The position numbers and the translations under genes were made by a program. Under the pieces are notes generated by a model. It made no database searches and was not told the origin of the DNA. It was given only the letters and a program-made list of their open reading frames with translations. Source: a virus (lineage: Duplodnaviria > Caudoviricetes). From it: a stretch of DNA of 64,000 bases. Shown here one piece after another: positions 2,699-38,908 of the stretch; the first letter of the stretch is position 1, and each line of letters starts with the position of its first letter. The stretch lies in the IMG/VR virus record IMGVR_UViG_3300033273_000833, positions 64,001 through 128,000 of that record; one strand, written 5' to 3'.

Positions 2699-3062
2699 GG
2701 GCGTGTACTGGATTCGATTTAAATTGGATTAGTATACTGCAAGTAGGAGTTGCATCTGGCTCCTCAAAAAGGTGCAAACAATTACATGGCAACAAAAACC
2801 GTGTTAAAGCTTTCGGCCTTAAAGCTAAAAAGCTTGCCCTAGCAGCTTAGTTCTGCTACCTCGTAACCTTTGACGCAGATAAAAGGATTACGGGGCCATT
2901 AATCTGCAAAACAGAAAAAGTTTTCTTGCTTCACAAACTGCAAATAATTGAAACAAGAAGTTGGATGTTAATATCATAACTGTAAAAAAAATTAACTAAA
3001 CTTGTAGGCGTATATCTACAGAAAATTTAAAGACGCGGGTTCGACTCCCGCCACGTCCACCA
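2699..3062 (+). ncRNA. ssrA: tmRNA (364 nt); tag (A)GNKNRVKAFGLKAKKLALAA* at 2788..2850
   Basis: 5' GGGCGTG pairs with 3' CACGTCC-A-CCA including a G3.U wobble (Ala identity); GGATTCGA D-loop; GCGGGTTCGACTCCCGC T-arm; internal ORF ending LALAA-TAG. Confidence 0.95.
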
Positions 3063-3099: not shown

Positions 3100-3687
3100 A
3101 TGCTTGTCAAAAAAATATTCTTAATCACCTTTCCAAATTCGTCTCGATCAAAATATTATACAGAATCAAATTCTCATTCCAAAAAGCATTTGACTTTTTT
3201 TAATGCCATTGATACCAGAGAAGACCCTCTAGGCTTTTGCTCAAAATATGGCATCAAGATCAACATAATGGAAAAATGGAAAAAATATTTTTTGTCAAAT
3301 AGTGGTTCATTTGGCTGCACAATTTCGCATGTAGAGCTTTGGAAAAAAATATCATCAATGAAAAAAGGAGATTTTGTCTGCGTTTGTGAAGACGACATAT
3401 CAGTAGATTCTCTAGAAAAATTAATTAACACAGACCTCAGGAGTATAGACTCAGATATAACTTCGGGTAAAATAATCAACATAGCAGGGTGGGCATTTGA
3501 TCTTTGTTCTGCGGGTTATTTGATTGATTCTGCTGGGGCTAAATATTTATTAAAAGAATTTAACCAAACCATTATAGCCCCTCAGGACAAATTTATGTTT
3601 CAAGTTTGCTTCAAAAAAAATCCAGAACTATTTAAATGGAATCCTGTTTTAAAATTTGCAGAACATTTTAAGAATACAACCTTGTAA
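3100..3687 (+). CDS. GT25 family glycosyltransferase
   Basis: FFNAID...GSFGCTISHVELWKKI...VCVCEDD...SAGYLI..AGAKYLL...APQD. Confidence 0.85.
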   Translation: MLVKKIFLITFPNSSRSKYYTESNSHSKKHLTFFNAIDTREDPLGFCSKYGIKINIMEKWKKYFLSNSGSFGCTISHVELWKKISSMKKGDFVCVCEDDISVDSLEKLINTDLRSIDSDITSGKIINIAGWAFDLCSAGYLIDSAGAKYLLKEFNQTIIAPQDKFMFQVCFKKNPELFKWNPVLKFAEHFKNTTL

Positions 3688-3699
3688 ATATTTTTATTT

Positions 3700-4137
3700 A
3701 TGACTGATATTAACCCATATTACATTGCTTACATGCAAGGTGGTGATTACATTATAAATGCAAAAATAGATGATCTTCCTGTACATGTAGAAAATAATAT
3801 ACAACAACCAGGCCAATATTTTATTAAAATTTGGATACAATATAAAAGTACAGAATGGGAAGTAGACTATAATAAGGGATGGGTAGGATGCTTAAACAGC
3901 GACGAATCACACCTAATCAATAAAACTTTTAAAAACGGCGACAACGGCCCAATTAAAATTGCAAAAATTGAACTTGATGATGTTATATTCATAGTTGATT
4001 TTCCTGACCGAGGTTTCAACTTAAAATTTAAAGAAAACTTTTTTAAAAATAATCCAAATATCAGTAAATATTTAGGCGGAATTATATCTAAAGATCAGTT
4101 ACGATATTTAGATGATTATAAACAAATTTTAATTTAA
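3700..4137 (+). CDS. hypothetical protein
   Basis: 145-aa ORF in tandem after GT25; no motif recognised. Confidence 0.6.
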   Translation: MTDINPYYIAYMQGGDYIINAKIDDLPVHVENNIQQPGQYFIKIWIQYKSTEWEVDYNKGWVGCLNSDESHLINKTFKNGDNGPIKIAKIELDDVIFIVDFPDRGFNLKFKENFFKNNPNISKYLGGIISKDQLRYLDDYKQILI

Positions 4138-4269
4138 TTATTTATAAAAATATACTTAGTGCTCCAGCTAATAAAATTAAAAATATTATTTGACTAATTT
4201 CAACGTTGTGTATCATGCTTGTTTTGTTTGTGCGTGGAAGTTGTTTTTGAAGAATTCCATAATGACTTA

Positions 4270-6075
4270 TTAGAAATACTTTAACCATGTTTCACAAATT
4301 TTTAAATCTAGCTCTGTGATGATTTGTTTGTTAAATAGTTTTTGGTAAATGTTTCGCATTAGTTCTTTGTTGAAGTTTTTATCTATTGACTTTTGTCGAG
4401 GTAAAACATCTTCGCCCAACACATCTACAATAGTTTCGTTAGCCAAATACATGGGAACTTCCGACTCGAAGTCTTGCATCAAATCGTGTTCATTCCTTAG
4501 CTGTGTTACATTAGGTGAGGTGTAAGCCATGTTTTTATTGTTGTACTTCAAGAGGGTATTTGCTACGATTCCTTTTAATATATCACAATAACGAAAAGTT
4601 ACAGAACAAGGTATAAGTAAACCTAGAAAGAGGTTTGGATCTAACCAAAAAGTATTTTGAGTATTAAACGGACAGGTATTCTCATTGGATATAATTATTT
4701 TTTTGCCTTTTTCCCATACAACTGCATGATTGCAAACTAAACGAAAAATAGCATCAACATCTGGATCGTTTTCAACGAGACCATTAATTATGGCAACATC
4801 TTCTTTGTTTTTTGAATTGTCAAATTTAAAGTCTGGATGCGGGTTTTGTTTTATATTGGATAACGGGTAACCTCTTGGCCAAATCCAACTGTTATTGGTG
4901 AAGTATTTAAAAATATTGATCCACGAACTATTATTTTCTTTGATAGTTTGTACATTTTTATCGAGTTCAAGAACTGAGTCAAAGTTGTCGTGCGGTATGT
5001 TGTCATCATCAGTCTCGTATATAACCTCGTAACCTTTTTTAATAGCGTAAAGATAACCTAAGTTTTTACGACCATAATGGTTGTAGGGTATCAAATCACA
5101 CAATTCAGGAAACAATTTTTTTTGATTTTCAACATCCAAAAATATACAATCTTCATTTTTATATGTGCCTGGAGTTTTTAGATCACCCACGATGATTACA
5201 TCATATTCTGAATTGCTTATGTGTTTACGAATAGTTTCCGTAGGTTCATTAATGGTGGTTATTATGACGCATTTTTTCTTTTGAAAAATATCATTTAGTA
5301 AATCGAGTAGTTTTGGGTTTTCACCAAATTTAATTGGATGTAAAAATAAATCAAATTTTTTATTAAATCTGTTCTTTATATACGGTGGTTTAGAGGTGAG
5401 ATTTCTGGAACTCCACAGGACAGTTCCACTTATGTTATTATAGTTCTGTCGTTCAGGTTCAATATTCCTAATAATTGTTGGTATTGCTATTTCTAAAAAA
5501 ACACCATAATTTGCGAATAGTTGAAATAAATCAAAAATTTTGCTCGAAAGATATTTTTTTGGTAAATAAAAATAATCAGCAAATTCTTTACAATATTTAT
5601 TAATACCAAAGTCATGATATTCCGCATTTTTTTCTAGTTTAGATATTGCTTTTATGCCGTAAGGGCCGTGCCACCAGCCCCCTTTAAGTGCATCTAGTGC
5701 ATCTAGTGGTTTTATATTAAAACCGTGACCTGTAGCAGAGCAGGCCTCTGTATTGTAAATAATTTTTCCTGTGTCATATAAATTCAATATATTTGTGTTG
5801 ATTATGTTATCATCCATTGTATAGAATAGACCATCGCATTCGTTTATATCGTTCTTGTAATTATCGTACAAATGCTTAAAAATTTTATGAGCAAGGTATC
5901 CACGCTCTATATCAATATAGTTAACATCGTTGTGCAATTTTTCATCGGTATCTTTGGGTGTATCAGAGTATACAATAATTTTTTTAAAATGGCTTTTATA
6001 CAAATCGCAAATTTTTTGCCTGCTGTCTAAGCATTTGCTATAGTTGAATACTAATAGTAATATTGAATTTGTCAT
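4270..6075 (-). CDS. STELLO/DUF288-like glycosyltransferase with swapped domain order
   Basis: CVIITTINEPT..VIIVGDLKTP..GRKNLGYLYAI..IYETDDDN..WPRGYPL (GT75-like STELLO domain) lies C-terminal; ILLLVFNY..LYKSHF..GY..DGLFYTMDD..WW..ADYFYLP..VFLEIAIPT lies N-terminal. Confidence 0.8.
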   Translation of the reverse strand: MTNSILLLVFNYSKCLDSRQKICDLYKSHFKKIIVYSDTPKDTDEKLHNDVNYIDIERGYLAHKIFKHLYDNYKNDINECDGLFYTMDDNIINTNILNLYDTGKIIYNTEACSATGHGFNIKPLDALDALKGGWWHGPYGIKAISKLEKNAEYHDFGINKYCKEFADYFYLPKKYLSSKIFDLFQLFANYGVFLEIAIPTIIRNIEPERQNYNNISGTVLWSSRNLTSKPPYIKNRFNKKFDLFLHPIKFGENPKLLDLLNDIFQKKKCVIITTINEPTETIRKHISNSEYDVIIVGDLKTPGTYKNEDCIFLDVENQKKLFPELCDLIPYNHYGRKNLGYLYAIKKGYEVIYETDDDNIPHDNFDSVLELDKNVQTIKENNSSWINIFKYFTNNSWIWPRGYPLSNIKQNPHPDFKFDNSKNKEDVAIINGLVENDPDVDAIFRLVCNHAVVWEKGKKIIISNENTCPFNTQNTFWLDPNLFLGLLIPCSVTFRYCDILKGIVANTLLKYNNKNMAYTSPNVTQLRNEHDLMQDFESEVPMYLANETIVDVLGEDVLPRQKSIDKNFNKELMRNIYQKLFNKQIITELDLKICETWLKYF

Positions 6076-6091
6076 TTTTTAAATTTCTTCT

Positions 6092-6847
6092 TCATTTAGG
6101 GGAATATTTACGTAAAAAAATGTATTCGGATGATTCTTTTGGTATGTTAGAGAATACTTGCGCCGCTGTCCTAGTTTGATCTATGTTACAATATATAAAT
6201 TGTTCATTGTCTATGTAATCAATACTATTGTATTTTAACGCATTTGCCCAATAATACTCGTCATGCAAAAAGTATTTAACACATTCATTTTTATCATGGG
6301 GAAGATACTTCTTGGCATAATCATCGTTAAAACCAACAAAAATATCGGATTTTAATATTTCAGGTGTTTTTAACTTATAAAAATCTTCTTTTGATATACA
6401 GAAAAACATATTTTGCTTGACCCATTCAACTTCACTAATTTTTGACTTAAATTTAGCAGTCGTTATACTATTGTATTTGCTTGAATTAAATTTAGCTTGT
6501 GATGTTGTTGGGTTTTTTTGTATTTTTATATTAGTATGTTTGTTATTATTTACAAACGATATAGATCGCCTTAGTGGTAGCATATCTCCCGACATTATGT
6601 ATACAACATCACACCCTTTATCAAATAAATCATGAAATAATAAGTTCGTCGCGACAACCAGGCTAGAATGCCCCCATTCGGTTGGTATAGTATTAATACA
6701 ATTTATTGGAAATGGTAATTTATTTTGCACCCTTCCTTTTGCATGCACAGATATTATCGTTTCATGTTTTATAGAATTAAAAAACGCATCAAGATGTGAT
6801 ACATTATGTATTTTATTATATACCATGAAGCCAAAACCAATTTTCAT
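6092..6847 (-). CDS. GT14/Core-2-I-branching (DUF266-type) glycosyltransferase-like
   Basis: KIGFGFMVY..ISVHAK..PTEWGHSSLVVAT..LF..YIMSGDMLPL..KQNMFF..HDEYYW. Confidence 0.65.
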   Translation of the reverse strand: MKIGFGFMVYNKIHNVSHLDAFFNSIKHETIISVHAKGRVQNKLPFPINCINTIPTEWGHSSLVVATNLLFHDLFDKGCDVVYIMSGDMLPLRRSISFVNNNKHTNIKIQKNPTTSQAKFNSSKYNSITTAKFKSKISEVEWVKQNMFFCISKEDFYKLKTPEILKSDIFVGFNDDYAKKYLPHDKNECVKYFLHDEYYWANALKYNSIDYIDNEQFIYCNIDQTRTAAQVFSNIPKESSEYIFLRKYSPK

Positions 6848-7521
6848 AACTTGTGGAGGTTAAAAAGTTGTGGATATTTTTCATGCATAATTGTTAAGAC
6901 CATTTCTTCATCATATATAATGAAATTATTATCAACAAATTGTAGGCATTCTATATATTTCTTTGTAAATTCAGGAATTATGTGTCTTGGGAGTTTTATA
7001 ACTTGAGCCAATATCTTTATGGGTGGTAATGTATTTTTTAGTAAACCTTTATATGGTTTATTTGGGAAGTTGTCTGATTTTGCATATTGATTGATGTAAC
7101 ACTTATTGCTATCACTGGAGGTTATTGACTGTAAATTTCTTGTCTTCACGCAATCAACCCACATTAAATAATCAGCATCTGTATAGTCTAAAATTTTTTC
7201 AAAAAGAAGAATTTTGCTTGTCCATATTGTAGCTAACTTTAAAAAAGCATTGGATTTAACGTGCCTCCCAAATTTGAAATAAACTGCATCTCGTGATTTG
7301 CAAAAATTAGTTAAGTTTTTAAGGTACGGCAAACTTGGAAGATTATTAAATTCCAAATCAATTTTATTGGAGAAGCCTACAACCTGATCTTGCGAACATA
7401 TAAAATAATCTAAATTTTTGTTTCGAGCATGTTTTATATGACCTTGTCTGTTTGAAAATTTTGGATTGTTTTCTACATGCCAGTAGGCGGAAAAGGTTGT
7501 TGTTTTTTTCATATTGATCAT
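6844..7521 (-). CDS. HtrL/WlaTC-like glycosyltransferase
   Basis: IWTSKILL...DADYLMWVD...DEEMVLTIMHEKYPQLF. Confidence 0.55.
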   Translation of the reverse strand: MINMKKTTTFSAYWHVENNPKFSNRQGHIKHARNKNLDYFICSQDQVVGFSNKIDLEFNNLPSLPYLKNLTNFCKSRDAVYFKFGRHVKSNAFLKLATIWTSKILLFEKILDYTDADYLMWVDCVKTRNLQSITSSDSNKCYINQYAKSDNFPNKPYKGLLKNTLPPIKILAQVIKLPRHIIPEFTKKYIECLQFVDNNFIIYDEEMVLTIMHEKYPQLFNLHKL

Positions 7522-7526
7522 AATTA

Positions 7527-7688
7527 CTATTCTCCAAATTTGTAACCGAAATACTCAATGTGCGTACTACCCCCATATGGGTCTCCGTTGTACCCCGTGT
7601 CCGATCTTCCGAAGACAGCCTCCTCGACTGATTCTCCGCCACATTTTGCAAAATGCACAAATATAATTTTTTGTTTATGACAAATCAC
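7527..7688 (-). pseudogene. internally deleted sulfotransferase (53 aa, GTG start), absent from the ORF track
   Basis: Translates MICHKQKIIFVHFAKCGGESVEEAVFGRSDTGYNGDPYGGSTHIEYFGYKFGE*: N- and C-termini of the neighbouring sulfotransferases fused in frame. Confidence 0.8.
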
Positions 7689-7690
7689 TA

Positions 7691-8452
7691 TTATCTATGT
7701 TTGCGGTTTCCTAAGCCTGTAATATATTTCCTGTTTTTCTGTATATACAGATTATCATATATCCCTTTGGATTTGGAGATAACAGTGTTTTTATTATAAA
7801 TCCCAGCAATTCCGCTAAACGAGGATATTCCAGAAGGAAATAATATGTCGCATAATATCATGTCATTGATTGCAGTTAGCTCTGGTGTATTGCGATCATA
7901 TACATTTACTCTCATTCCATGAGTGTTAAGCTCCCTTAAATTTATATTTCCGTCAGTATGTATATTTATTGATAAGGGGGGATTTATGTAGTAGTGGATA
8001 TAATCTAAAATATTTTTTAGGTCTTCAGTAGAGCAAGCTCTATATCTAACTGGTTTACAGCCTTTATATTCCTCATTAGCAGTATCTCCTCTTCGCACAT
8101 GTATACAGATATTGGTCTGATTAACTTGTTGAAGAGTGTTTTCTAGAGGGGTGTAGTTTTTAATGATTGATTGCATAAATTTGCTACTAAAATCAGCAAA
8201 TAAGCCACGTTTGATAATTGGAGTATAATTAGCTTCACCGCTAAAGATGGTGATCTTATTTAATTCTTTCTCACAAATGTTATGAAATTTAGAGCCTAGG
8301 TTAAAGACAGACTCGTATGGATCCTCGAGTGGTGTGTGTATATATTCGAAGCCTTCTTGTTTAGCAAAGTAAGCGGTCCATAGTCTGCTATAAATTTGCA
8401 TACCAATCCTATCTGTTTTTTGACAGGTGATATATTTTTTTGCTTTTCTCAT
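7691..8452 (-). CDS. GT11/NodZ-like fucosyltransferase-like protein
   Basis: DRIGMQI at the N-terminus; ICIHVRRGD; MILCDILF..SSFS. Confidence 0.6.
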   Translation of the reverse strand: MRKAKKYITCQKTDRIGMQIYSRLWTAYFAKQEGFEYIHTPLEDPYESVFNLGSKFHNICEKELNKITIFSGEANYTPIIKRGLFADFSSKFMQSIIKNYTPLENTLQQVNQTNICIHVRRGDTANEEYKGCKPVRYRACSTEDLKNILDYIHYYINPPLSINIHTDGNINLRELNTHGMRVNVYDRNTPELTAINDMILCDILFPSGISSFSGIAGIYNKNTVISKSKGIYDNLYIQKNRKYITGLGNRKHR

Positions 8453-8516
8453 TCAGTTAGTAATGTTTGCAAGTTATTTAAGCTGACGAATTCAATATTC
8501 TGGTTGTGGAATAAAT

Positions 8517-9122
8517 TTAATCTCCAAATTCATAATTAAAATACTCAATGTCTTTTGCATATTTTTCTGCAACTATTTGCTTCGTTTCTTCATCGTAATA
8601 TTCGGTGTAGTGTTTTTTGTTTCTCTTGTTCATATGTGGCAATTTCAATCCTTTCATATTCAAGTAATTACACACACACATAAAATTATTTTCAAAATTT
8701 TCAAATCTACCAACAAAATCAACAGCTATATTACCTTCATTATCTTTCAAGAAATCATATTGAGCAACAGAGTGAGATGGATCAAGGTGTATGGGCGATA
8801 GTAGAAACTTTTTTAAGCTTTGTTTTTTTGGTCCGCCGAAATAAAAATAATCTGATATGGCCCTGTCCCATGGGTTTCTAACAAAAGCAAAAGAAAAATA
8901 ATAATTCTTTAATTGTGGGTGAATTTTATAAACCTCACTGATTGTAAGGTGTTGAAGATATTTTCCTGTATACTCATCCCTGCCAAGCAATAATTGCTTG
9001 TCGCAAAAATTATTTGGGAATTTTTTTTTGTCCCATAAATTATAACCAAATGCAGTTTCAATACTAGAACCGCCGCACTTGGGTATATGAATGAAGATAA
9101 ATTTATGCTTATGGCTTATCAT
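8517..9122 (-). CDS. Sulfotransferase (Sulfotransfer_2 family)
   Basis: FIFIHIPKCGGSS (5'-PSB loop), FAFVRNPWDRAIS (3'-PB), DFVGRFENF, YAKDIEYFNY. Confidence 0.9.
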   Translation of the reverse strand: MISHKHKFIFIHIPKCGGSSIETAFGYNLWDKKKFPNNFCDKQLLLGRDEYTGKYLQHLTISEVYKIHPQLKNYYFSFAFVRNPWDRAISDYFYFGGPKKQSLKKFLLSPIHLDPSHSVAQYDFLKDNEGNIAVDFVGRFENFENNFMCVCNYLNMKGLKLPHMNKRNKKHYTEYYDEETKQIVAEKYAKDIEYFNYEFGD

Positions 9123-9142
9123 TGTACTGAATAATATACACC

Positions 9143-9784
9143 TTATTTTAACCAGCTTCCATTCCAGTGGTGAACCGCATAAGCTTCAGGATGCGTTTTG
9201 GAAAAATCTTCTTCCCTACGAAACTTTTCTTGCCAATAGTAAGGGTATACAGTTTTCTTAAGAGAATCGCGACCATCTGGCATTCCTATTTCGTGTCCTA
9301 ATTTTTCGGTTATGTATGCTGGTCCATATTTATAATCAGAGTTTTCTTTATGGCCATGAGATTTTTTTCTCGAAGGTAGTCCGTCTATCAAGCGTTTTAC
9401 ATCTCTATTATGCTTGGAGGCTCCAAAAAAAGCTCCGCATATTTTTTTATGTTCTTGATGAAATAAAACAATTTCTTTTTGTTCAAAGAGAGGATTTATA
9501 TTTTTTAAGCATTCAAAGTCGGTATCAATATACAATCCTCCAAACTGATAAAGGATTTCAAACCTTAAGATATCAGATTTTTCAGAAAAATTTTCGCAAC
9601 TCTCTAGAATTTCAGGGTAGGTAATTTTTAAATTATCTTTTATTTTTTTATCGTCCCAAAGAATATGTATCCATTCGGGGTTTTTACTTTTCCATGTACC
9701 TTGCCAGTATAACTCTTGTTTTGATAATGAACTTTCGCCCATATGTATTTGATGAAATATTTTTGGTATTATTGAATTTCTCAT
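9143..9784 (-). CDS. GT32 (OCH1-like, DXD) glycosyltransferase
   Basis: IPKIFHQI..SDILRFEILYQFGGLYIDTDFECLK..GPAY..YAVHHWNGSW. Confidence 0.9.
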   Translation of the reverse strand: MRNSIIPKIFHQIHMGESSLSKQELYWQGTWKSKNPEWIHILWDDKKIKDNLKITYPEILESCENFSEKSDILRFEILYQFGGLYIDTDFECLKNINPLFEQKEIVLFHQEHKKICGAFFGASKHNRDVKRLIDGLPSRKKSHGHKENSDYKYGPAYITEKLGHEIGMPDGRDSLKKTVYPYYWQEKFRREEDFSKTHPEAYAVHHWNGSWLK

Positions 9785-9786
9785 TT

Positions 9787-10371
9787 TTATTCTCCAAATT
9801 TATACCCAAAATACTCAATGTCCTTTGCGTATTTTTCCGCAACAAGTTGACGAGTTTCATCATCGTAATATTTTGTGTAATGGGTGGTTTCTGTTTTGTA
9901 ATTGTGTGGTAGTGTTTTTCCAGAAATACCTATATTTCTACAAACATTATTGAAGTCTTCGTGTAAATTTTCAAATCTTCCTATAAAATCCATTTGTTCA
10001 AGTGGTTTTAATATTTTCATGTAATCGTATCTGTGATATGGATCTCCTACATTGCTACTAAAAAATTTTTTTAAAAAACATTTAAAAGTTGTTCCGTGAT
10101 AAAATTTTTTGACTTTTTTTAGTGGGTATTTGTGTGTTGAATTTGTAAACCATTTAAACTCTGAAACCATTTTATCGTAAGGGTTTCTTACAAACGCAAA
10201 CTTATAATAATTTTTATACTTATCCAACTTCAGAACCTCTGCATGGGTCGTGTGAGTGTGACCATTAAAAAAGAATTCAAAATCTTGCAAGTATCTTTCC
10301 ATGCTTGTGCCCGCACACTTCGGTATATGAATAAATACAGTTTTATGTTTATCACTTATCATTTTTATCAA
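9787..10371 (-). CDS. Sulfotransferase (Sulfotransfer_2 family)
   Basis: VFIHIPKCAGTS, FAFVRNPYDKMVS, DFIGRFENL, YAKDIEYFGY. Confidence 0.9.
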   Translation of the reverse strand: MIKMISDKHKTVFIHIPKCAGTSMERYLQDFEFFFNGHTHTTHAEVLKLDKYKNYYKFAFVRNPYDKMVSEFKWFTNSTHKYPLKKVKKFYHGTTFKCFLKKFFSSNVGDPYHRYDYMKILKPLEQMDFIGRFENLHEDFNNVCRNIGISGKTLPHNYKTETTHYTKYYDDETRQLVAEKYAKDIEYFGYKFGE

Positions 10372-11183
10372 ATTTTGTTTTCTTTCTTCATAAGAGTTTC
10401 GTCCTTTACCTCTGGATGGTCACTGCTTAATAAATGTTGCAATGTATAATCTGAATACCAATTATTTAATTTTATTTTTTTTTCACAGTTTTCTTTGGAT
10501 ATTATTCTATAATGGTAGCACAACAAAAATCCAGTCTCAATATCTACCTCACGTAAATTATCATAAAACGGATTTAATTCACTTGGTTGGTTGCCAACTC
10601 CGTCGCGAATTTGCTCTGGAGTTCCCATGTGTTCACATGGATGATGGTCTTTTATCTTTGTAAAATATGTTGGTTTAAAAATACATTTAACTTCAATTTT
10701 TTCATAACGACATCTAAACTTGTGAATTTTGTGTGGATGTTTTTTATCATGATTCCACCTATAAGTTATTTCATTTAAAATGCTTTTTGGATTTTTTTTC
10801 AAGGAATTGCAAGACATCATCACCCAAGGTACTTTTATGCAATGGGCGTCCTTGAAAGTTGTTTGTAATTCATCCCTAATAGTTTTATTGAGATTTTTCT
10901 TTGTAACTATAAACTCATCAATGTCCACATATATTACCCACTCGTAATTATCCTTAAGTTTATCCACCCAATTTAAAATATAATTGTCCTTTGTAATTTC
11001 CTTTTCAAAGAAAATGTTTATGTTTTCTTTATTTAACAATTCATCATATATGGATTTATCTTCGGAATCGTCATCTATTATATTAATTTCGTCAACTCCT
11101 TGACTTAGATAATGATTGCAAAACTCTGCAACAAAAAACTCATCTTTACAACGAGCTATTAATCCTAAAAATTTTTTGTGCAT
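10368..11183 (-). CDS. GT2-like/GT92-like glycosyltransferase
   Basis: LIARCKDE..VAEFCNHY..GVDEINIIDDDSED..WVIYVDIDEF..KCIFKP..YHYR. Confidence 0.8.
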   Translation of the reverse strand: MHKKFLGLIARCKDEFFVAEFCNHYLSQGVDEINIIDDDSEDKSIYDELLNKENINIFFEKEITKDNYILNWVDKLKDNYEWVIYVDIDEFIVTKKNLNKTIRDELQTTFKDAHCIKVPWVMMSCNSLKKNPKSILNEITYRWNHDKKHPHKIHKFRCRYEKIEVKCIFKPTYFTKIKDHHPCEHMGTPEQIRDGVGNQPSELNPFYDNLREVDIETGFLLCYHYRIISKENCEKKIKLNNWYSDYTLQHLLSSDHPEVKDETLMKKENKI

Positions 11184-11189
11184 TGACTC

Positions 11190-11993
11190 TTATTCAGGTC
11201 TTTTGCCTAAAGGTTTTCCATCTTGACCAATTTCTCCAGCCCTAATTTTGGTTGCAGAAACATTTTGAAGCTCTTTACTTAATTCAAGCTGCTCAATGTT
11301 ATATCCTACGCCTCTACCATAAAATACATCTGTAATATTTGGAAGCTCAACAACTTTAATTTTATTCCCAAACTCAATGCATGCAGAATGAATTTCTGCT
11401 TTAACTTTTTCAAAATTATATGGATTCTTTTCGTCAATTCCGCCGACATCTCTTAAAGCAATGCAGCATTGCCCAGTTCTTTTAATCGCTTCAGCAACTA
11501 ATGTTTTATGGCCAACATGAAAAGGTTGATACCTCCCAATTAATAAAGCTGTTGGAGCTTGATTATCCCAGGATTCTGTTTCATTTAATTTATTCAATAC
11601 TCTTTCAACCCATTCTTCTGGAGATCCGTCAGTTAGTCTTACGTCGTAATTCAAAGGTCTTTCAAACATTTTATTAGTGTCTTCGTATCTACCTTCCATA
11701 ATCCTATCGACCCATACAACAAAATCAGCAGCAAATGCTTTTCTTGTTTCTTGGGTAGGGCATACAAAATCGGCGACAGAGTAACCTCCGCCCATTGAAG
11801 ACCAAGAACATAGTTTACCCATTCTTTCGGCATGCTTAATTCTATCTTCTTCCGAAAACCCTAGCTCTGAATATATATCTTGCCTAACGGCATCAGCGTT
11901 AAACCAGGCTGCGTTAATTTTTTTTACTAAAATCTCAGCCAACGTTGTTTTGCCAGATCCTGGGAGCCCCATAATCAAAATTTTTCTTTTCAT
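11190..11993 (-). CDS. cysC: Adenylyl-sulfate kinase fused to a C-terminal HxGH nucleotidyltransferase domain
   Basis: GLPGSGKTT..NADAVR..LGFSEEDR..VADFVCP (APS kinase); GRYQPFHVGH..NPY..VSATKIR (NadM/Sat-type nucleotidyltransferase). Confidence 0.85.
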   Translation of the reverse strand: MKRKILIMGLPGSGKTTLAEILVKKINAAWFNADAVRQDIYSELGFSEEDRIKHAERMGKLCSWSSMGGGYSVADFVCPTQETRKAFAADFVVWVDRIMEGRYEDTNKMFERPLNYDVRLTDGSPEEWVERVLNKLNETESWDNQAPTALLIGRYQPFHVGHKTLVAEAIKRTGQCCIALRDVGGIDEKNPYNFEKVKAEIHSACIEFGNKIKVVELPNITDVFYGRGVGYNIEQLELSKELQNVSATKIRAGEIGQDGKPLGKRPE

Positions 11994-12015
11994 ATCTCTG
12001 TTTACACGCTTTTTT

Positions 12016-12345: not shown

Positions 12346-12574
12346 CTTGAATGCGAGGAAGAATGAACGATGTGTATTTCCTACGCACACTAGCTTTTCT
12401 GCACGAAGAACATCCTCCAGGTTTATTCACTTCTGCCAAGTAATCTTTTTTCATTTGCTGACAACCATCAAAGTTTATTTCTTGACAAGTTTGCTCGGGC
12501 GTTTTATTTAAATCCATAAATATTCTTATGAGATTCATTTGGGCTGGTGTTTTTGGATTCATTTTTCTTGACAA
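12338..12574 (-). CDS. small Cys-containing hypothetical protein
   Basis: GGCSSC motif; start may be 12562. Confidence 0.55.
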   Translation of the reverse strand: MSRKMNPKTPAQMNLIRIFMDLNKTPEQTCQEINFDGCQQMKKDYLAEVNKPGGCSSCRKASVRRKYTSFILPRIQDD

Positions 12575-12596
12575 ATTTGATTACATATATTATACT
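12568..12596 (+). promoter_or_regulatory. sigma70 promoter (leaderless)
   Basis: TTGACA-17-TATACT; ATG at 12603. Confidence 0.85.
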
Positions 12597-12602
12597 TATA
12601 AT

Positions 12603-13142
12603 ATGAAAAATATTCTAGAAAAAACTAAAACTTATCTGGTTGGCCACATGCAATACATTAGTGGGAGGAACTGGCGAGAAGAAGTTACTCAAAAGCTTTC
12701 TGATATTAACATTACATGCTTCGACCCTTATAAAAAACCCTTTATTAAAGATGTCGAAGAAGATGAGGTCTCAAGACAAGAAATGGAAACTTGGATGAAA
12801 ACCAAGCAGTACGACAGAGTAACGGAAAGAATGAAAATGGTAAGAGCTTATGACCTAAATTTAGTTGATCGTAGCGATTTTATCATCGCTCATCTAGTTC
12901 CTAGCGTTGCATCTTGGGGTAGTGCCGAAGAAATTGTTACTGCGGTAAGAATGAAAAAACCTATCTTTATCAGCATGGAAGGCGGTAAGTCCCAAACTCC
13001 ACTCTGGATGCTAGGAATGCTTCCTCATAAATACATTTACAATTCAGTAGAAGAAATAGTAGATATGCTTTTTGCTATCAATGAAGGGTCAAAAACTATA
13101 GACTCAGATCGCTGGCGCCTATTAAGACATGAATTTAGATAG
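12603..13142 (+). CDS. nucleoside 2-deoxyribosyltransferase-like protein
   Basis: YLVGHM..WREEV..FDPY..DLNLVDRSDFIIA..SWGSAEEIVTA..KKPI; start reassigned to MKNILEK at the promoter-defined ATG. Confidence 0.65.
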   Translation: MKNILEKTKTYLVGHMQYISGRNWREEVTQKLSDINITCFDPYKKPFIKDVEEDEVSRQEMETWMKTKQYDRVTERMKMVRAYDLNLVDRSDFIIAHLVPSVASWGSAEEIVTAVRMKKPIFISMEGGKSQTPLWMLGMLPHKYIYNSVEEIVDMLFAINEGSKTIDSDRWRLLRHEFR

Positions 13143-13763: not shown

Positions 13764-13984
13764 TGAAAGAAGTTTATCTTAGAGGAATTTATTCTCAATA
13801 TGTCGGATTAAGAGATCAAAAAATTGCAGACTTGAATGTCATGCTTAATTCTCCTGTTGGAGTCGGAGAGCACGGGGATTTAAGTGAGACAATTAAAAAA
13901 ATTATAGAAGAAATTGATAAGTACGATTCTCTTATTTCCACATTGAACAATTTAATTCCTAAAGAAGAAGATAAGAGTGAGTAA
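13763..13984 (+). CDS. hypothetical protein
   Basis: MKEVYLRG..LNSPVGVGEHGDL..; start reassigned via the TAATG overlap. Confidence 0.7.
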   Translation: MKEVYLRGIYSQYVGLRDQKIADLNVMLNSPVGVGEHGDLSETIKKIIEEIDKYDSLISTLNNLIPKEEDKSE

Positions 13985-14942
13985 AAGTTTAAAATACTCA
14001 GATATTTGCTTGATTCCTAATTATAGCGAATGTCACTCTAGATCAGATTGCGATACATCAGTATCTTTATTTGATAAAAAATTTAATCTACCTATCATTC
14101 CAGCCAATATGAAGTCTGTAATTGATATGGACTTAGCTAAATGGATGAGTGATAATCAATATTTTTATGTAATGCATCGCTTTAATCGCGATTTAGCTGA
14201 AGATGTTGCTAACGCTCAAGAATGGAATAATATTTCATTTAGCGTCGGGGTTAAGATGGAATGCAAGATCGCAATACAAAAAATTAAGAAGCGAAACCAC
14301 AAGGTCGATTTTTTAACAATTGATATTGCTCACGGACATTGTTTAAGAATGAAAACAATGATTAACTTTATCAGGAAACATTTGCCTGATACGAAAATTA
14401 TAGCTGGCAATGTCGCAACTCCTCAGGCAGTTAGAGATTTATCCTCTTGGGGCGCTGATGTCGTTAAGGTTGGAGTAGGTCAAGGTTCTCCTTGTACAAC
14501 TAAAGATAAAACTGGCTTCACTATGCCAATGTTTAGTTGCGTAAAAACTTGCTCTAAGCAGTATTCTGACGACCTTGAGGAGGAAACAAGTATTCCAATC
14601 ATTGCAGATGGAGGTATAGGTAGCAATGGAGATATCGCAAAAGCTCTTGTAGCTGGAGCAACAATGACTATGGCAGGAGGTTTATTTGCGGCTTGCTCTG
14701 ATAGCCCCGCATGCCCTAGCTTAATAGGAGGAGTATCTCACAAATCTTATTTTGGCTCAGCGAGTGCGGAGAATAAAGGGCATCGCAATCACGTAGAAGG
14801 CAAACTAAATCACATCTTATGCAACAATATGACCTACGAACGAAAGCTAAATGAAATCAAACAAGACTTACAAAGCGCCATATCATATGCAGGAGGCCAA
14901 GATCTAAGCGCATTTAAACACGTACAGTACACAGAACAATGA
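13977..14942 (+). CDS. guaC: GMP reductase
   Basis: PIIPANM, IDIAHGH, IAGNVATP, KVGVGQGSPCTT, IIADGGI..GDIAKAL, VEGK. Confidence 0.93.
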   Translation: MSKSLKYSDICLIPNYSECHSRSDCDTSVSLFDKKFNLPIIPANMKSVIDMDLAKWMSDNQYFYVMHRFNRDLAEDVANAQEWNNISFSVGVKMECKIAIQKIKKRNHKVDFLTIDIAHGHCLRMKTMINFIRKHLPDTKIIAGNVATPQAVRDLSSWGADVVKVGVGQGSPCTTKDKTGFTMPMFSCVKTCSKQYSDDLEEETSIPIIADGGIGSNGDIAKALVAGATMTMAGGLFAACSDSPACPSLIGGVSHKSYFGSASAENKGHRNHVEGKLNHILCNNMTYERKLNEIKQDLQSAISYAGGQDLSAFKHVQYTEQ

Positions 14943-34060: not shown

Positions 34061-34106
34061 ATTTTAAAATTATGGAAATAAATAAATTTAACTATATAAT
34101 AATATT

Positions 34107-34415: not shown

Positions 34416-34445
34416 ACAAATATCAGTCGAATTTAGAGGCAGACA

Positions 34446-35579: not shown

Positions 35580-35588
35580 TGAAATCCA

Positions 35589-36851: not shown

Positions 36852-36906
36852 AATATATAAAATATATCGGTTTAAAAACCTTAATTGTGTAATATAATTT
36901 TATAGA

Positions 36907-37959
36907 ATGAAGAAAATTATCATAACAGGAGTAACAGGTCAAGACGGTAGCCACATGGTAGACTATCTCTTAAAATTATTTAACGAAGAGTTTGGTAAAA
37001 CAGACTACATGATATACGGATCGATAAGAAGGTTAAGTGTCAAGAATCATGAAAACATTTTACATCTAGAAGATGAGCCTAGATTTCAGTTAATTGACAT
37101 GGATCTAAATGATCCTCACAGTATTCGTGACGTGGTCATCGATATTCAGCCTGATTACTTTATTAACTTTGCGGCTCAATCCTTTGTGGCAGGAAGCTGG
37201 AAATATCCAATACAAACGTGGGACACTGATGCAGATGCCGTTCTTCATATTTTAGAATCAATTCGTAGATTTGCACCAAATTGTAGATTTTATAATGCTG
37301 GATCATCTGAAGAATTTGGAGATGTCATTTATAGCCCTCAAGACGAAAAGCATCCACTTCGCCCTCAATCTCCTTATGGAGCTGCAAAATGTGGTGCTAG
37401 GCATATAGTCAGAGTCTATAGAGAATCTTATGGTCTATATGCAGTTCAAGGCTGGTTATTTAATCATGAAGGAACTCGCAGAGGACTTGACTTTGTAACT
37501 CGAAAAATTACTCATACTATCGCTAGAATTAAAATTGCTCTTGAAAATAACAAACCCCTACCAATTCTTAAACTTGGAAACTTAGAGGCTAAAAGAGACT
37601 GGAGTGACTCAGAAGATTTTATGGAGGGAGTATGGTTAATGCTAAATCAAGACGCTCCTAAAAATTATGTTCTAGGAAGCGGTGAAATGTTTACTGTTAG
37701 GGAGTTTTTAAATATTTGCCTTAAATATGCTGGTATTGAGTTTGAAACTAGAGGCTCTAATGATTCCGAAGAATATTATACAAAAGAAGGTGCTCTATTT
37801 TTTCAGGTAGATCCTAAATTTTATCGACCTGCAGAAGTTCATGAGCTGTGTGGAGATCCATCTCTTGCTGAAAAAGAATTAGGCTGGGTAAGAAAAACTT
37901 CATTCGAAGCCTTAGTAAAAAAGATGTACGACAATGACTACCAATTACTCAATCACTAA
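36907..37959 (+). CDS. gmd: GDP-mannose 4,6-dehydratase
   Basis: GVTGQDGS, NFAAQSFV, SSEEFG, SPYGAAK, LFNHE, RDW, FYRPAEV. Confidence 0.96.
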   Translation: MKKIIITGVTGQDGSHMVDYLLKLFNEEFGKTDYMIYGSIRRLSVKNHENILHLEDEPRFQLIDMDLNDPHSIRDVVIDIQPDYFINFAAQSFVAGSWKYPIQTWDTDADAVLHILESIRRFAPNCRFYNAGSSEEFGDVIYSPQDEKHPLRPQSPYGAAKCGARHIVRVYRESYGLYAVQGWLFNHEGTRRGLDFVTRKITHTIARIKIALENNKPLPILKLGNLEAKRDWSDSEDFMEGVWLMLNQDAPKNYVLGSGEMFTVREFLNICLKYAGIEFETRGSNDSEEYYTKEGALFFQVDPKFYRPAEVHELCGDPSLAEKELGWVRKTSFEALVKKMYDNDYQLLNH

Positions 37960-38908
37960 AGATTCAAAAATTTTCATCGCAGGCCACAGAGGAATGGTCG
38001 GCTCTGCGACATTAGATTGTCTTAAAGCTCAAGGCTATCAAAACATCGTAACTAAAAACAGGAAAGAGCTTGACTTAACAAACCAAAAAGATGTTGATTC
38101 TTTTTTTGAAAAGGAACAAATCAACATTGTTATTCTATGCGCGGCAAAAGTTGGAGGGATACTCGCCAACAATACTTATAGAGGAGATTTCCTTTATGAT
38201 AATTTACTCATTAGTGCAAACATTATTAAAGCCGCCCGAGATTGCTCTGTAGGTAAATTAATCAATCTAGGCTCGTCTTGCATTTATCCTAAAAATTCGG
38301 ATTTACCAATTAAAGAAGAAAGTCTTTTGAGCGGATTTCTAGAGTCTACAAACGAGCCTTATGCTATAGCTAAAATTGCGGGATTAAAATTATGCGAAGC
38401 ATTCTACCACCAATACTCTAGTAATTTTTACTCAATTATGCCATGCAATTTATACGGCGAAAGAGATAATTTTGACCTCAAAAGCTCTCACGTACTTCCT
38501 GCGTTTATTAACAAATTCCATACTGCAAAAGAAAGTGATTTAGATTTTGTTAAAATTTGGGGCTCAGGAAAACCTAAAAGAGAATTTTTGCATGTTAGGG
38601 ATTTGGCTAACGCTATACTGTTTTGCTTGGAGAATGTTGAAGCTGAAGACATATACAAGTACAATATTTCTCACTTGAATTGCGGTTCATCTCAAGAAGT
38701 TTCTATCCTAGAGTTAGCCAACTTGATTAAAAAAACTGTAAAATATAAGGGCGAAATCAGATTCGATAAATCGAAGCCAGATGGAACTTTTAGAAAAGTT
38801 ATGAACAATAATAGAATCTTCAAATTAGGCTTTTTACCTCAGATATCTCTCGAGGATGGGATTAAACAAACATATAATTGGTATATAAAAAATAATGAAA
38901 AAAAATAA
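37934..38908 (+). CDS. fcl: GDP-L-fucose synthase
   Basis: AGHRGMVGSA, AAKVGGI, GSSCIYP, YAIAKIAG, CNLYG, WGSGKPKREFLHV. Confidence 0.96.
   Translation: MTTNYSITKDSKIFIAGHRGMVGSATLDCLKAQGYQNIVTKNRKELDLTNQKDVDSFFEKEQINIVILCAAKVGGILANNTYRGDFLYDNLLISANIIKAARDCSVGKLINLGSSCIYPKNSDLPIKEESLLSGFLESTNEPYAIAKIAGLKLCEAFYHQYSSNFYSIMPCNLYGERDNFDLKSSHVLPAFINKFHTAKESDLDFVKIWGSGKPKREFLHVRDLANAILFCLENVEAEDIYKYNISHLNCGSSQEVSILELANLIKKTVKYKGEIRFDKSKPDGTFRKVMNNNRIFKLGFLPQISLEDGIKQTYNWYIKNNEKK

What the first reader, a model, noticed from the sequence alone, without database searches (positions are those of the whole stretch)
3100..11993. Sulfated-glycan biosynthesis island with its own putative PAPS supply
Seen: one minus-strand operon (11993 to 4270) encodes an APS kinase-nucleotidyltransferase fusion, two intact and one deleted Sulfotransfer_2 genes, and GT2/92-like, GT32, GT11-like, HtrL-like, GT14-like and STELLO-like glycosyltransferases, plus a convergent GT25. 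Established: Sulfotransfer_2 enzymes transfer sulfate from PAPS to carbohydrates; APS kinase makes PAPS. Inference: the phage builds a sulfated glycan on the virion or the infected cell surface (anti-defence, superinfection exclusion, or mimicry of algal sulfated polysaccharides that PVC hosts bind). This would recast cysC here as a glycan-sulfation gene, not a sulfur-assimilation AMG.
Basis: partly seen in the sequence, partly recalled or inferred. Interest (0 to 1): 0.8.

Follow-up and report, generated by a model that had tools for sequence, protein, structure and literature searches.

The report
Phage sulfated-glycan operon with PAPS supply
A 203-kb uncultured marine phage carries a tight operon of sugar-adding and sulfate-adding enzymes headed by a small two-part enzyme that probably makes the activated sulfate donor (PAPS), so the phage most likely builds its own sulfated, fucose-containing sugar coat, and the small enzyme may be an undescribed compact PAPS synthase that is also common in SAR11 bacteria.

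Summary
A co-directional, almost gapless minus-strand operon (11993-4270) encodes an APS-kinase-like/nucleotidyltransferase fusion (KinNT). It also encodes two intact Sulfotransfer_2 genes, one in-frame deleted remnant, and GT2/92, GT32, GT11-like, HtrL-like, GT14-like and STELLO-like transferases. A GT25 gene converges on it.

The record is a complete phage, probably of marine Opitutales, and has GDP-L-fucose genes 25 kb away. It has no canonical ATP sulfurylase, CysD/CysH or CysQ.

KinNT homologues lie within 0-5 kb of sulfotransferases of two Pfam families in several phage clades and two bacterial lineages. The two halves occur fused in both orders, or split into adjacent genes in SAR11. 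The checked SAR11 genomes that carry the pair mostly have sulfotransferases and AprA but no canonical ATP sulfurylase.

Best reading (0.6): a phage-encoded cytoplasmic pathway builds a sulfated, probably fucosylated glycan, most likely on virion proteins, with KinNT supplying PAPS.

Caveats:
- The kinase has N-A-D where APS kinases have D-G-D.
- The second domain is closest in sequence to NMN adenylyltransferases.
- Some KinNT-bearing phages have no detectable sulfotransferase.
- No activity or acceptor is shown.

This scan reached the same "mini PAPS synthase" reading earlier on other genomes.

The parts
11190..11993 (-). KinNT: first gene of the operon, 267 aa. An APS-kinase-like P-loop domain (residues 1 to about 138) is fused to a mini HxGH/ISxTxxR nucleotidyltransferase (residues about 143-267).
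   Evidence: Pfam, NCBIfam and PHROG. PDB sequence hits to APS kinases and to NadM. AF2 model pLDDT 84, and the roughly 50 listed Foldseek hits are nearly all APS kinases or APS-kinase domains. Invariant motifs in 31 homologues.
11190..11567 (-). The nucleotidyltransferase half of KinNT, with GRYQPFHVGH, PNI, YGRGVGYNIE and VSATKIR. Candidate sulfate adenylyltransferase.
   Evidence: Profile against the PDB: NadM/NMNAT best, E 4.9e-9. VIA Z: 9.4 PPAT, 8.7 NadM, 7.8 ATP sulfurylase 1v47. hhalign against a canonical Sat aligns only the ISGTKIR motif.
12002..12007 (-). GTGTAA box 8 nt upstream of the KinNT ATG. This phage-specific start-proximal motif also precedes tail and virion genes.
   Evidence: Sequence. 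Genome-wide, 20 of 29 GTGTAA-N6-11-ATG sites start ORFs of at least 60 aa. In 7 unrelated control hexamers the figure was 0-2 of 7-14; an eighth control that overlaps the motif gave 10 of 14. The motif-led genes include a minor tail protein, a tail-fibre-like protein, a virion structural protein and RNR.
10368..11183 (-). GT2_4/GT92-like glycosyltransferase (DIDEF motif).
   Evidence: Pfam PF13704 E 1.9e-12 and PF01697 E 1.3e-7.
9787..10371 (-). Sulfotransfer_2 enzyme number 1, with the PAPS-binding motifs HIPKCAGTS and VRNPYDKMVS.
   Evidence: Pfam PF03567 E 9.7e-19, 68.9 bits, cut-off 22. phrog_3347 E 7e-23.
9143..9784 (-). GT32-type glycosyltransferase (Gly_transf_sug, DTD motif).
   Evidence: Pfam PF04488 E 6.7e-16.
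8517..9122 (-). Sulfotransfer_2 enzyme number 2, with HIPKCGGSS and VRNPWDRAIS.
   Evidence: Pfam PF03567 E 9.2e-19. It is 42% identical to enzyme number 1.
7691..8452 (-). GT11-like protein with the HVRRGD motif, a probable fucosyltransferase.
   Evidence: Weak Pfam hit, E 0.025. Three of 13 homologues carry PF01531. H118, R120, R121 and D123 are invariant.
7527..7688 (-). In-frame internally deleted remnant of a third Sulfotransfer_2 (53 codons).
   Evidence: tblastn of the two intact genes. Sequence and translation.
6844..7521 (-). HtrL_YibB-like protein, a putative glycosyltransferase.
   Evidence: ESM Atlas feature score 0.96; 20 of 30 nearest clusters carry PF09612. There is no Pfam hit of its own.
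6092..6847 (-). GT14/Branch-like glycosyltransferase.
   Evidence: ESM Atlas structure TM 0.74 to PF02485 clusters. There is no Pfam hit of its own.
4270..6075 (-). Two-domain 601-aa protein and last gene of the operon. The C-terminal half is a STELLO-like GT-A with DDD.
   Evidence: Own Pfam E 1.9e-4. Most of the 120 full-length homologues carry PF03385.
3100..3687 (+). GT25 glycosyltransferase, convergent with the operon.
   Evidence: Pfam PF01755 E 1e-14.
36907..38908 (+). GDP-mannose 4,6-dehydratase plus GDP-L-fucose synthase. They lie outside the finding but are the likely donor supply for the GT11-like enzyme.
   Evidence: Pfam. NCBIfam gmd E 1.4e-92 and GDPFucSynFcl E 8e-130.

Best explanation
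The operon is a phage-encoded, cytoplasmic pathway that assembles a branched, probably fucose-containing oligosaccharide and sulfates it at two or more positions.

KinNT, the first gene, supplies the donor. Its N-terminal domain phosphorylates APS to PAPS. Its C-terminal mini adenylyltransferase most likely makes the APS from ATP and sulfate. The 267-aa protein would then work like a compact PAPS synthase.

The seven soluble glycosyltransferases (six in the operon plus the convergent GT25) extend the chain. GDP-fucose comes from the phage's own Gmd and Fcl, and the two Sulfotransfer_2 enzymes add sulfate.

The most likely acceptor is a virion (tail or capsid) protein, for these reasons:
- every enzyme is soluble;
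- the phage has no priming transferase or flippase;
- the operon carries the phage-specific start motif also seen on tail and virion genes;
- its gene content turns over rapidly between close relatives, which suggests an exposed structure under diversifying selection.

Shown here: gene identities, motifs, folds and genomic linkage. Inferred: every enzymatic activity, the APS-forming step, the acceptor and the biological purpose.
For: 1. Operon anatomy and family calls.

2. The kinase half. The roughly 50 listed Foldseek PDB hits are nearly all APS kinases or APS-kinase domains (E 1e-8). The residues that align with the APS kinase LDGDxxR...LGFSxxDR...FxSP block are invariant in 31 homologues: R36, F45, R50 and F75..P78.

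3. The second half. HxGH and ISxTxxR are invariant. The fold is that of HUP adenylyltransferases, and ATP sulfurylase 1v47 scores Z 7.8 over 115 residues.

4. Linkage to sulfotransferases:
- In close relatives, 26 of 35 records carry Sulfotransfer_2, up to 11 genes each. All 11 records at least 90% complete have a sulfotransferase of some family.
- In distant clades (40-44% identity), the only Sulfotransfer_2 gene of a 169-kb and a 238-kb record starts 4 nt after KinNT ends.
- Other clades have Sulfotransfer_2 1.1-1.6 kb away, or Sulfotransfer_3 1-5 kb away.
- On the KinNT tree, proximity to a sulfotransferase occurs in both main branches.
- Two bacterial lineages also have an adjacent sulfotransferase.

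5. Fused and split forms. Among the top 150 relatives of the second domain, 61 are Kin-NT fusions, 2 are NT-Kin and 73 are NT alone. In 39 of 77 bacterial loci the halves are two overlapping 135-aa genes.

6. No other route to PAPS in the phage. There is no ATP sulfurylase and no CysD/CysH, and KinNT is the only APS_kinase hit.

7. Ten bacterial genomes that carry the pair. Nine lack PF01747. The SAR11 ones lack a full CysD. Eight have Sulfotransfer_3 and six have AprA. In four of them the pair is the only APS-kinase hit.

8. Fucose supply: Gmd and Fcl.

9. Cytoplasmic acceptor. There are no membrane segments and no Bac_transf, Glycos_transf_4 or Polysacc_synt in the genome. The GTGTAA motif is shared with tail and virion genes.

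10. Island turnover. Relatives with 85-90% identical KinNT share none of the downstream genes. In two relatives KinNT directly abuts the homologue of window gene 1874-2662.
Against: - The first Asp of the APS kinase D-G-D-N motif is Asn in nearly all family members. In human PAPSS1 the D87A change abolishes kinase activity (PMC8528679). The Pfam match covers only 5-91 of 152 positions, so the lid is shortened.
- By sequence the second domain is nearest to NadM/archaeal NMN adenylyltransferases. It shares only the ISGTKIR motif with a canonical Sat. The fold scores do not separate PPAT, NMNAT and ATP sulfurylase.
- KinNT occurs with no detectable sulfotransferase in phage Bacata, where it sits next to a NADAR/COG3236 gene. 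The same holds for a complete 117-kb record, where a Trp halogenase lies downstream. In another clade it sits beside a TET-associated glycosyltransferase.
- In SAR11 the pair lies in a core metabolic neighbourhood with no sulfotransferase within 6 kb.
- AprAB could be an alternative APS source in SAR11.
- The GTGTAA motif also precedes ribonucleotide reductase, so it does not prove late timing.
- No activity, glycan or acceptor has been observed.
Confidence: 0.6

Rival explanations
1. KinNT supplies only the APS-to-PAPS step, and APS comes from the host. The C-terminal domain does something else, such as NMN/NaMN adenylyltransferase activity for NAD upkeep, or a regulatory or nucleotide-binding role. 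The island still makes a sulfated glycan.
For: The C-domain's best sequence relatives are NadM/NMNAT, with GRxQPxHxGH and NPF conserved. There is no sequence homology to Sat beyond ISGTKIR. In Bacata the gene overlaps a NADAR/COG3236 gene, a family tied to NAD/ADP-ribose chemistry.
Against: The domain is about 115 residues with only three predicted strands, so it lacks the NMN-binding part of NMNATs of about 170 residues. It scores far below the NMNAT model cut-offs, 31 against 397 bits. It is almost always fused or adjacent to this one kinase type, in either order. SAR11 genomes with sulfotransferases and the pair lack any canonical ATP sulfurylase.
Confidence: 0.2
2. KinNT is a small-molecule kinase plus nucleotidyltransferase that makes some other activated donor, an NDP-alcohol or NDP-sugar as HldE or LicA/LicC-type pairs do, for decorating the glycan. 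The sulfotransferases would then live on host PAPS.
For: Kinase plus HUP-nucleotidyltransferase pairs that make activated donors are well known (established knowledge). KinNT also sits beside non-sulfotransferase glycan genes: GLF and GT2, a DegT fragment, and TAGT.
Against: The kinase domain's structural and sequence neighbours are almost all APS kinases, and the residues aligned to the conserved APS kinase motif block are invariant. Linkage is specifically to sulfotransferases of two unrelated Pfam families, often as the only such gene in a record of more than 150 kb.
Confidence: 0.08
3. The glycan is made, but the target is the infected cell's envelope (LPS, capsule or S-layer glycan) and not the virion. 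It would serve to block superinfection or to mask receptors.
For: Phage glycosyltransferases that change host serotype are a known kind (established knowledge; cited in PMC12619734). GT25 and HtrL families are LPS-core associated by name.
Against: There is no priming phosphoglycosyl transferase, flippase or membrane-anchored enzyme in the operon or the genome. The operon does not carry the sigma70-type early promoter and shares its start motif with tail and virion genes. The phage could still act on host-primed intermediates, so this is not excluded.
Confidence: 0.25
4. The sulfotransferases act on something other than a sugar, for example hydroxylated residues of tail-fibre or collagen-like proteins, small metabolites, or glycans attached to phage DNA.
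For: Bacterial operons that combine sulfotransferases, PAPS synthetases, dioxygenases and tail-collar or collagen-like proteins have been predicted to sulfate hydroxylated proteins (PMC2938197). One KinNT clade sits next to a Trp halogenase and another next to a TET-associated glycosyltransferase.
Against: In this operon the sulfotransferases are interleaved with, and translationally coupled to, glycosyltransferases. Sulfotransfer_2 is the carbohydrate sulfotransferase family. This genome has no thymidylate-synthase/dCMP-hydroxymethylase family, no TET/JBP and no TAGT, so no hydroxymethyl-base anchor for DNA glycans was found.
Confidence: 0.07

Closest known systems
Bifunctional PAPS synthases: metazoan PAPSS1/2 (PDB 1x6v) and bacterial or fungal Sat-APS kinase fusions (2gks, 1m8p)
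   Same: Both join an APS-kinase-type domain to an adenylyltransferase of the HUP fold in one chain. The order is the same as in PAPSS, with the kinase first. PAPSS1 and ATP sulfurylases appear among the fold matches of both halves.
   Different: KinNT is 267 aa against about 620. The kinase has a shortened lid and N-A-D in place of D-G-D. The second domain is about 115 aa, is not a PF01747 member, and is closest in sequence to NMNATs. Activity is untested.
Dedicated PAPS supply next to a sulfotransferase in bacteria (NodP/NodQ with NodH in rhizobia)
   Same: The logic is the same: a sulfation cassette carries its own activated-sulfate genes even where the genome has housekeeping ones. The SAR116 and alphaproteobacterial genomes have both KinNT plus a sulfotransferase and canonical CysD.
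   Different: NodPQ are canonical CysD/CysN-CysC homologues (established knowledge). Here the activating enzyme belongs to a different, miniature family and sits in a phage.
NadM / archaeal NMN adenylyltransferase (PDB 2qjt, 1f9a) and NadR
   Same: They are the best sequence relatives of the C-domain. GRxQPxHxGH, NPF and ISxTxxR are shared. NadR also couples a P-loop kinase with this transferase type.
   Different: The C-domain lacks about 50 residues of the NMNAT core and scores about 10-fold below the family cut-offs. The attached kinase resembles APS kinase and not ribosylnicotinamide kinase.
Virus-encoded cytoplasmic glycosylation of virions: mycobacteriophage capsid and tail-tube glycans (Freeman et al. 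2023, as cited in PMC12619734); chlorovirus and mimivirus glycan machinery (from knowledge)
   Same: The glycosyltransferases are soluble and virus-encoded, and there is no lipid-carrier or export machinery. The GT14-, HtrL- and STELLO-like genes have their nearest clusters largely in giant-virus and phage metagenomes.
   Different: Sulfation of such glycans, and a virus-encoded PAPS source, were not found in the literature searched. The acceptor here is unknown.

Membership tests
APS kinase (CysC, PF01583) | Walker A P-loop | tested here: met
   GLPGSGKT is invariant in 31 homologues.
APS kinase (CysC, PF01583) | D-G-D-N loop. In human PAPSS1 the single changes D87A and D89A each abolished APS kinase activity (PMC8528679). 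| tested here: not met
   The motif reads N-A-D. The second Asp (D33) is invariant. The first position is Asn in at least 90% of homologues.
APS kinase (CysC, PF01583) | APS-binding block xxR...(L/W)(G/D)FSxxxR...FxxP | tested here: met
   R36, F45, R50, F75 and P78 are invariant and align to this block in 7yq0, 2yvu and 2gks.
APS kinase (CysC, PF01583) | Full-length domain with lid, scoring above the family-specific cut-off | tested here: not met
   Pfam is above its cut-off (46.6 against 21.1 bits) but covers only 5-91 of 152 positions. NCBIfam apsK gives 42 bits against a cut-off of 138.7.
APS kinase (CysC, PF01583) | APS kinase fold | tested here: met
   The roughly 50 listed Foldseek hits are nearly all APS kinases or APS-kinase domains, E about 1e-8, rmsd about 3 Å over about 170 columns.
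ATP sulfurylase (Sat, PF01747) | Sequence membership (the QxRNPxHxxH and GRDHAG motifs; profile match) | tested here: not met
   There is no PF01747 hit at KinNT. hhalign against a SAR11 Sat aligns only 15 columns around ISGTKIR.
ATP sulfurylase (Sat, PF01747) | Same catalytic fold (HUP nucleotidyltransferase) | tested here: inconclusive
   1v47 gives Z 7.8 over 115 residues. PPAT, NadR and NMNAT score 8.4-9.4, which is effectively a tie.
ATP sulfurylase (Sat, PF01747) | Forms APS from ATP and sulfate | not testable with these tools
   This needs an enzyme assay or genetic complementation.
NMN adenylyltransferase (NadM/archaeal type) | GRxQPxHxGH and ISxTxxR motifs | tested here: met
   Both are invariant.
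NMN adenylyltransferase (NadM/archaeal type) | Complete domain of about 170 residues, including the NMN-binding part, scoring above the model cut-off | tested here: not met
   The domain has about 115 residues and three predicted strands. The best NCBIfam score is 31 bits against a cut-off of 397.
Sulfotransfer_2 (PF03567) | Full-length profile match above the cut-off | tested here: met
   69.0 and 68.9 bits against a cut-off of 22, covering profile positions 4-252.
Sulfotransfer_2 (PF03567) | 5'-phosphosulfate-binding PKxGxS/T motif and 3'-phosphate-binding RxPxxxxxS motif | tested here: met
   IPKCGGSS with RNPWDRAIS, and IPKCAGTS with RNPYDKMVS. The motif definitions come from established knowledge.
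Sulfotransfer_2 (PF03567) | PAPS-dependent sulfation of a carbohydrate | not testable with these tools
   This needs an assay.
GT11 fucosyltransferase (PF01531) | Profile match and motif I, HxRRxD | tested here: inconclusive
   Own hit is E 0.025, 14 bits, below the cut-off. HVRRGD is present and invariant. Three of 13 homologues carry PF01531.
Phage virion-glycosylation system | Glycan found on capsid or tail proteins | not testable with these tools
   Only indirect support exists: soluble enzymes, no export genes, and a start motif shared with tail genes.

The most novel reading that the evidence does not exclude
The 115-residue NMNAT-like domain is an undescribed, minimal class of ATP sulfurylase. 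With its lid-less APS-kinase partner it forms a complete PAPS synthase of about 270 aa, fused or as two 135-aa genes. Many phage lineages use it to feed their own sulfotransferases. It is also the missing sulfate-activating (or APS-to-sulfate) enzyme of SAR11 bacteria, which have AprA and sulfotransferases but no canonical Sat or CysDN. In this phage it feeds a hypervariable sulfated fucoglycan displayed on the virion of a phage whose probable Opitutales host belongs, from general knowledge, to a group known for degrading sulfated algal polysaccharides.
Probability: 0.42. Interest if true: 0.85.

Novelty: new variant of a known kind. Interest (0 to 1): 0.7.

Why it matters
Viral 'cysC' genes are usually counted as sulfur-assimilation auxiliary genes. 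Here, and in several other phage clades, the gene sits with sulfotransferases and glycan genes and with no reduction genes. It should therefore be read as a donor supply for sulfation.

That would make sulfated glycans a phage-made product. In relatives with up to 11 sulfotransferase genes per genome it would be a heavily diversified one. This bears on virion surface chemistry, host recognition and marine sulfated-carbohydrate pools.

If the small second domain is an ATP sulfurylase, it is a new enzyme class. It would also change how sulfur metabolism is annotated in SAR11, the most abundant marine bacteria.

All of this can be tested directly with one recombinant protein of 267 residues.

Tried and rejected
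- Megablast of the island against cultured phages found nothing.
- The sigma70 promoter and terminator scan was no better than shuffles.
- phmmer of the sulfotransferase, and a profile of the GT11-like family, against PDB sequences gave nothing useful.
- Foldseek with the C-domain alone gave only E of about 4e-3, to PPAT and pantothenate synthetase.
- hhalign of the C-domain profile against a canonical Sat aligned only ISGTKIR, so homology to PF01747 is rejected.
- The DNA-glycan reading is rejected as the main explanation. The genome has no thymidylate-synthase family and no TAGT. No TET/JBP was found either, but that model hit no control genome, so its absence is uninformative.
- I looked for a phage CysQ and found none.
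- In SAR11 loci I looked for adjacent sulfotransferases and found none within 6 kb. Adjacency to aprA was seen in two loci only and I treat it as anecdotal.
- The 'moraphage' paper (PMC12619734) describes another lineage and no sulfation.
- Literature searches found no description of phage-made sulfated glycans or of this fusion. Subscription journals are not covered.
Neighbourhoods were therefore read from fetched loci with my own ORF calls.

Full report
**What the DNA is.**
The window is bases 64001-128000 of a 203,067-bp IMG/VR virus record that CheckV rates 100% complete. It has lambda-type tail genes (a 1911-aa J-like fibre and a minor tail protein) and a tmRNA gene. G+C is about 32%. Its DUF1501 gene is 70-82% identical to genes on contigs assigned to more than 20 marine Opitutia/Opitutales/Verrucomicrobiota genomes, including single-cell genomes. 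The host is therefore probably a marine Opitutales bacterium. Some of those contigs may themselves be phage.

Genes from 11993 down to 4270 are co-directional, with gaps of -4 to +64 nt.

Pfam places:
- KinNT (APS_kinase plus CTP_transf_like);
- a GT2_4/GT92 enzyme;
- two Sulfotransfer_2 enzymes, 42% identical to each other;
- a GT32 enzyme;
- the convergent GT25.

A 53-codon frame at 7527-7688 is an in-frame deleted third sulfotransferase that keeps both ends.

- GT11-like: HVRRGD is invariant and 3 of 13 homologues carry PF01531.
- HtrL-like: Atlas score 0.96.
- GT14-like: Atlas TM 0.74.
- STELLO-like: most full-length homologues carry PF03385.

All enzymes keep their DxD-type or PAPS-binding motifs, and none has a membrane segment.

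**The first gene, kinase half.**
KinNT belongs to phrog_10255, annotated only as 'kinase'. The AF2 model has pLDDT 84. Its roughly 50 listed Foldseek PDB matches are nearly all APS kinases or APS-kinase domains. The residues aligned to the conserved APS kinase motif block are invariant across 31 homologues down to 41% identity.

Two departures stand out. The lid is shortened to a family-specific EGRYEDTNKMF block. The D-G-D-N loop reads N-A-D, and in human PAPSS1 the first Asp is needed for activity (PMC8528679). The Asn is conserved across phages and SAR11, so it is a family trait and not decay. It does bar filing the domain as a canonical CysC.

**The first gene, second half.**
The C-terminal roughly 115 residues keep an invariant GRxQPxHxGH, PNI, YGRxVGYxIE and SATxxR. 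By sequence they are nearest to NadM/archaeal NMN adenylyltransferases (profile E 4.9e-9). They score far below those families' cut-offs, and only three strands are predicted.

Fold comparison gives PPAT Z 9.4, NadR 8.9, NadM 8.7, NMNAT 8.4 and ATP sulfurylase 7.8 over 115 residues. This is the HUP adenylyltransferase fold, with the substrate unresolved. A canonical Sat shares only the ISGTKIR motif. The domain could therefore work like an ATP sulfurylase, but it is not a member of that family.

IMG/VR gave 80 KinNT loci.
- *Close relatives (70-90% identity).* 26 of 35 records carry Sulfotransfer_2, with up to 11 genes per record. Ten of the 11 records at least 90% complete carry it. The eleventh has a Sulfotransfer_3 gene 4.7 kb from KinNT.
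- *Distant clades (40-44% identity).* In four records of one clade, including a 169-kb and a 238-kb record, the only Sulfotransfer_2 gene starts 4 nt after KinNT ends. Another clade has one 1.1-1.6 kb away. Two further clades have Sulfotransfer_3 genes 1-5 kb away, in one case in a same-strand run with UDP-galactopyranose mutase and a GT2.
- *Tree.* These cases fall in both main branches of the KinNT tree.
- *Cultured phages.* Only 3 of 50,697 records match the window's sulfotransferase and 15 match KinNT. One record, Stenotrophomonas phage DLP_6, has both.

Exceptions are real:
- Bacata has none, and its KinNT overlaps a NADAR/COG3236 gene.
- A complete 117-kb record has none and carries a Trp halogenase downstream.
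- Another clade has a TET-associated glycosyltransferase next door.

**The pair as a unit.**
Among the 150 best 50%-identity cluster representatives of the C-domain, 61 are kinase-NT fusions, 2 are NT-kinase and 73 are NT alone.

In bacterial genomes the family is abundant in Pelagibacteraceae, including a complete chromosome. Of 77 loci, 28 are fused and 39 are two overlapping 135-aa genes. Such fused and split forms, in both orders, argue that the halves act in one pathway.

I checked ten bacterial genomes that carry the pair:
- nine lack PF01747;
- the SAR11 ones lack a full CysD;
- eight have Sulfotransfer_3 genes, six of them at E 1e-36 to 1e-41;
- six have AprA;
- in four, the pair's kinase is the only APS_kinase hit.

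A sulfotransferase needs PAPS and PAPS needs APS. These genomes therefore need either an unrecognised ATP sulfurylase or APS from AprAB. The first option fits the NT domain, and the second keeps rival 1 alive.

A SAR116 genome and an alphaproteobacterial genome have the pair next to a sulfotransferase in addition to canonical CysD(N-C). That is the NodPQ/NodH logic.

**The phage's own genome.**
There is no ATP sulfurylase, no PAPS_reduct family (CysD/CysH), no second APS kinase and no CysQ. The 'cysC' is therefore not part of an assimilation set.

GDP-mannose 4,6-dehydratase and GDP-L-fucose synthase lie at 36907-38908. Next to them are an aminotransferase, a formyltransferase, a methyltransferase and further epimerases. 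This fits the GT11-like enzyme and suggests a fucose-containing product.

**Where the glycan goes (inference).**
- No Bac_transf, WecA-type or Wzx-type gene exists in the genome, and all enzymes are soluble. Assembly is therefore cytoplasmic, on a protein or on a host-primed intermediate.
- The KinNT start is preceded at -8 by GTGTAA. Genome-wide, 20 of 29 such sites start real ORFs, against 0-2 of 7-14 for seven unrelated control hexamers (an eighth control overlaps the motif itself). They include minor-tail, tail-fibre-like and virion-structural genes, and also ribonucleotide reductase. Relatives keep a degenerate TGTA box there. This marks a phage-specific programme and not the sigma70 early cassettes. 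It does not prove late timing.
- The island is hypervariable. Relatives with 85-90% identical KinNT share none of its downstream genes. In two relatives KinNT directly abuts the homologue of window gene 1874-2662.

Rapid turnover around a conserved donor gene is what an exposed, selected surface structure would show. I therefore favour virion proteins (about 0.4), then the host envelope (about 0.25).

**Comparison with the known.**
The system works like a PAPS synthase plus a sulfation cassette, and like virus-encoded cytoplasmic glycosylation. It fails defining tests for canonical CysC (D-G-D, lid), for Sat (sequence) and for NMNAT (size, score).

I found no paper describing phage-made sulfated glycans or this fusion. 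The library lacks most subscription journals.

Earlier AI notes of this scan reached the same 'mini PAPS synthase' reading on other phage, archaeal and bacterial DNA. I saw them after forming my reading, and they are not independent evidence.

**Verdict.**
The most interesting element is the candidate compact PAPS synthase.

Noticed in passing
window 2699-3062 (+): Phage-encoded tmRNA gene with tag peptide GNKNRVKAFGLKAKKLALAA. It lies between the conserved left-flank genes and GT25.
   Followed up: no
window 31154-39818 (+): Second sugar cluster: a GT2, a formyltransferase (ArnA-N-like), a LegC/DegT aminotransferase, a methyltransferase, Gmd, Fcl and a GalE/TviC-like epimerase. It suggests GDP-fucose plus an N-formylated amino sugar.
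   Followed up: partly
window 40263-44243 (+): A PSCyt2/PSD1/DUF4214 protein and a DUF1501 protein. The DUF1501 protein is 70-82% identical to genes on marine Opitutales/Verrucomicrobiota contigs, including 'Candidatus Seribacter sulfatis', which is a host clue. One 210,818-bp contig binned as Cellvibrionales carries both this gene and a 76% identical KinNT, so it is probably a phage of this lineage.
   Followed up: partly
G000 genome-wide; window 12002-12007, 22873, 24389, 54846: GTGTAA placed 8-11 nt before the ATG marks at least 20 gene starts, including tail, virion-structural and RNR genes. It is a phage-specific promoter or initiation signal.
   Followed up: partly
L093-L172 (bacterial loci), e.g. 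L164:5980-6761: SAR11 genomes carry the kinase and the mini nucleotidyltransferase as two overlapping 135-aa genes in a conserved core neighbourhood: enoyl-CoA hydratase, Rieske oxygenase, GcvT-like, SBP56 and CoA-binding genes. They have AprA but no canonical Sat or CysD. In L098 and L100 aprA lies about 3 kb downstream.
   Followed up: partly
L052:11291-12835; L080:10786-12324: In other phage clades KinNT is followed by a flavin-dependent Trp halogenase, or by a TET-associated glycosyltransferase, with no sulfotransferase detected. This may point to other PAPS users or to another function.
   Followed up: no
window 4270-6075 (-): The STELLO-like two-domain protein has full-length homologues at more than 50% identity on 'viral metagenome' UniRef entries and on contigs of 490-549 kb. 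This suggests gene exchange between large phages and giant viruses.
   Followed up: no
window 12528-13142 (+) and 13977-14942 (+): A nucleoside 2-deoxyribosyltransferase-like gene (below the Pfam cut-offs) and an IMPDH/GMP-reductase-family gene flank the island. Together with KinNT they are the conserved anchors of this plastic region in relatives.
   Followed up: no
G001, G018, G027, G033, G035 (relatives of the window's phage): Close relatives carry 10-11 Sulfotransfer_2 matches per genome, some as tandem arrays or multi-domain ORFs of 400-657 aa. This is an unusually large sulfotransferase complement for any virus.
   Followed up: no
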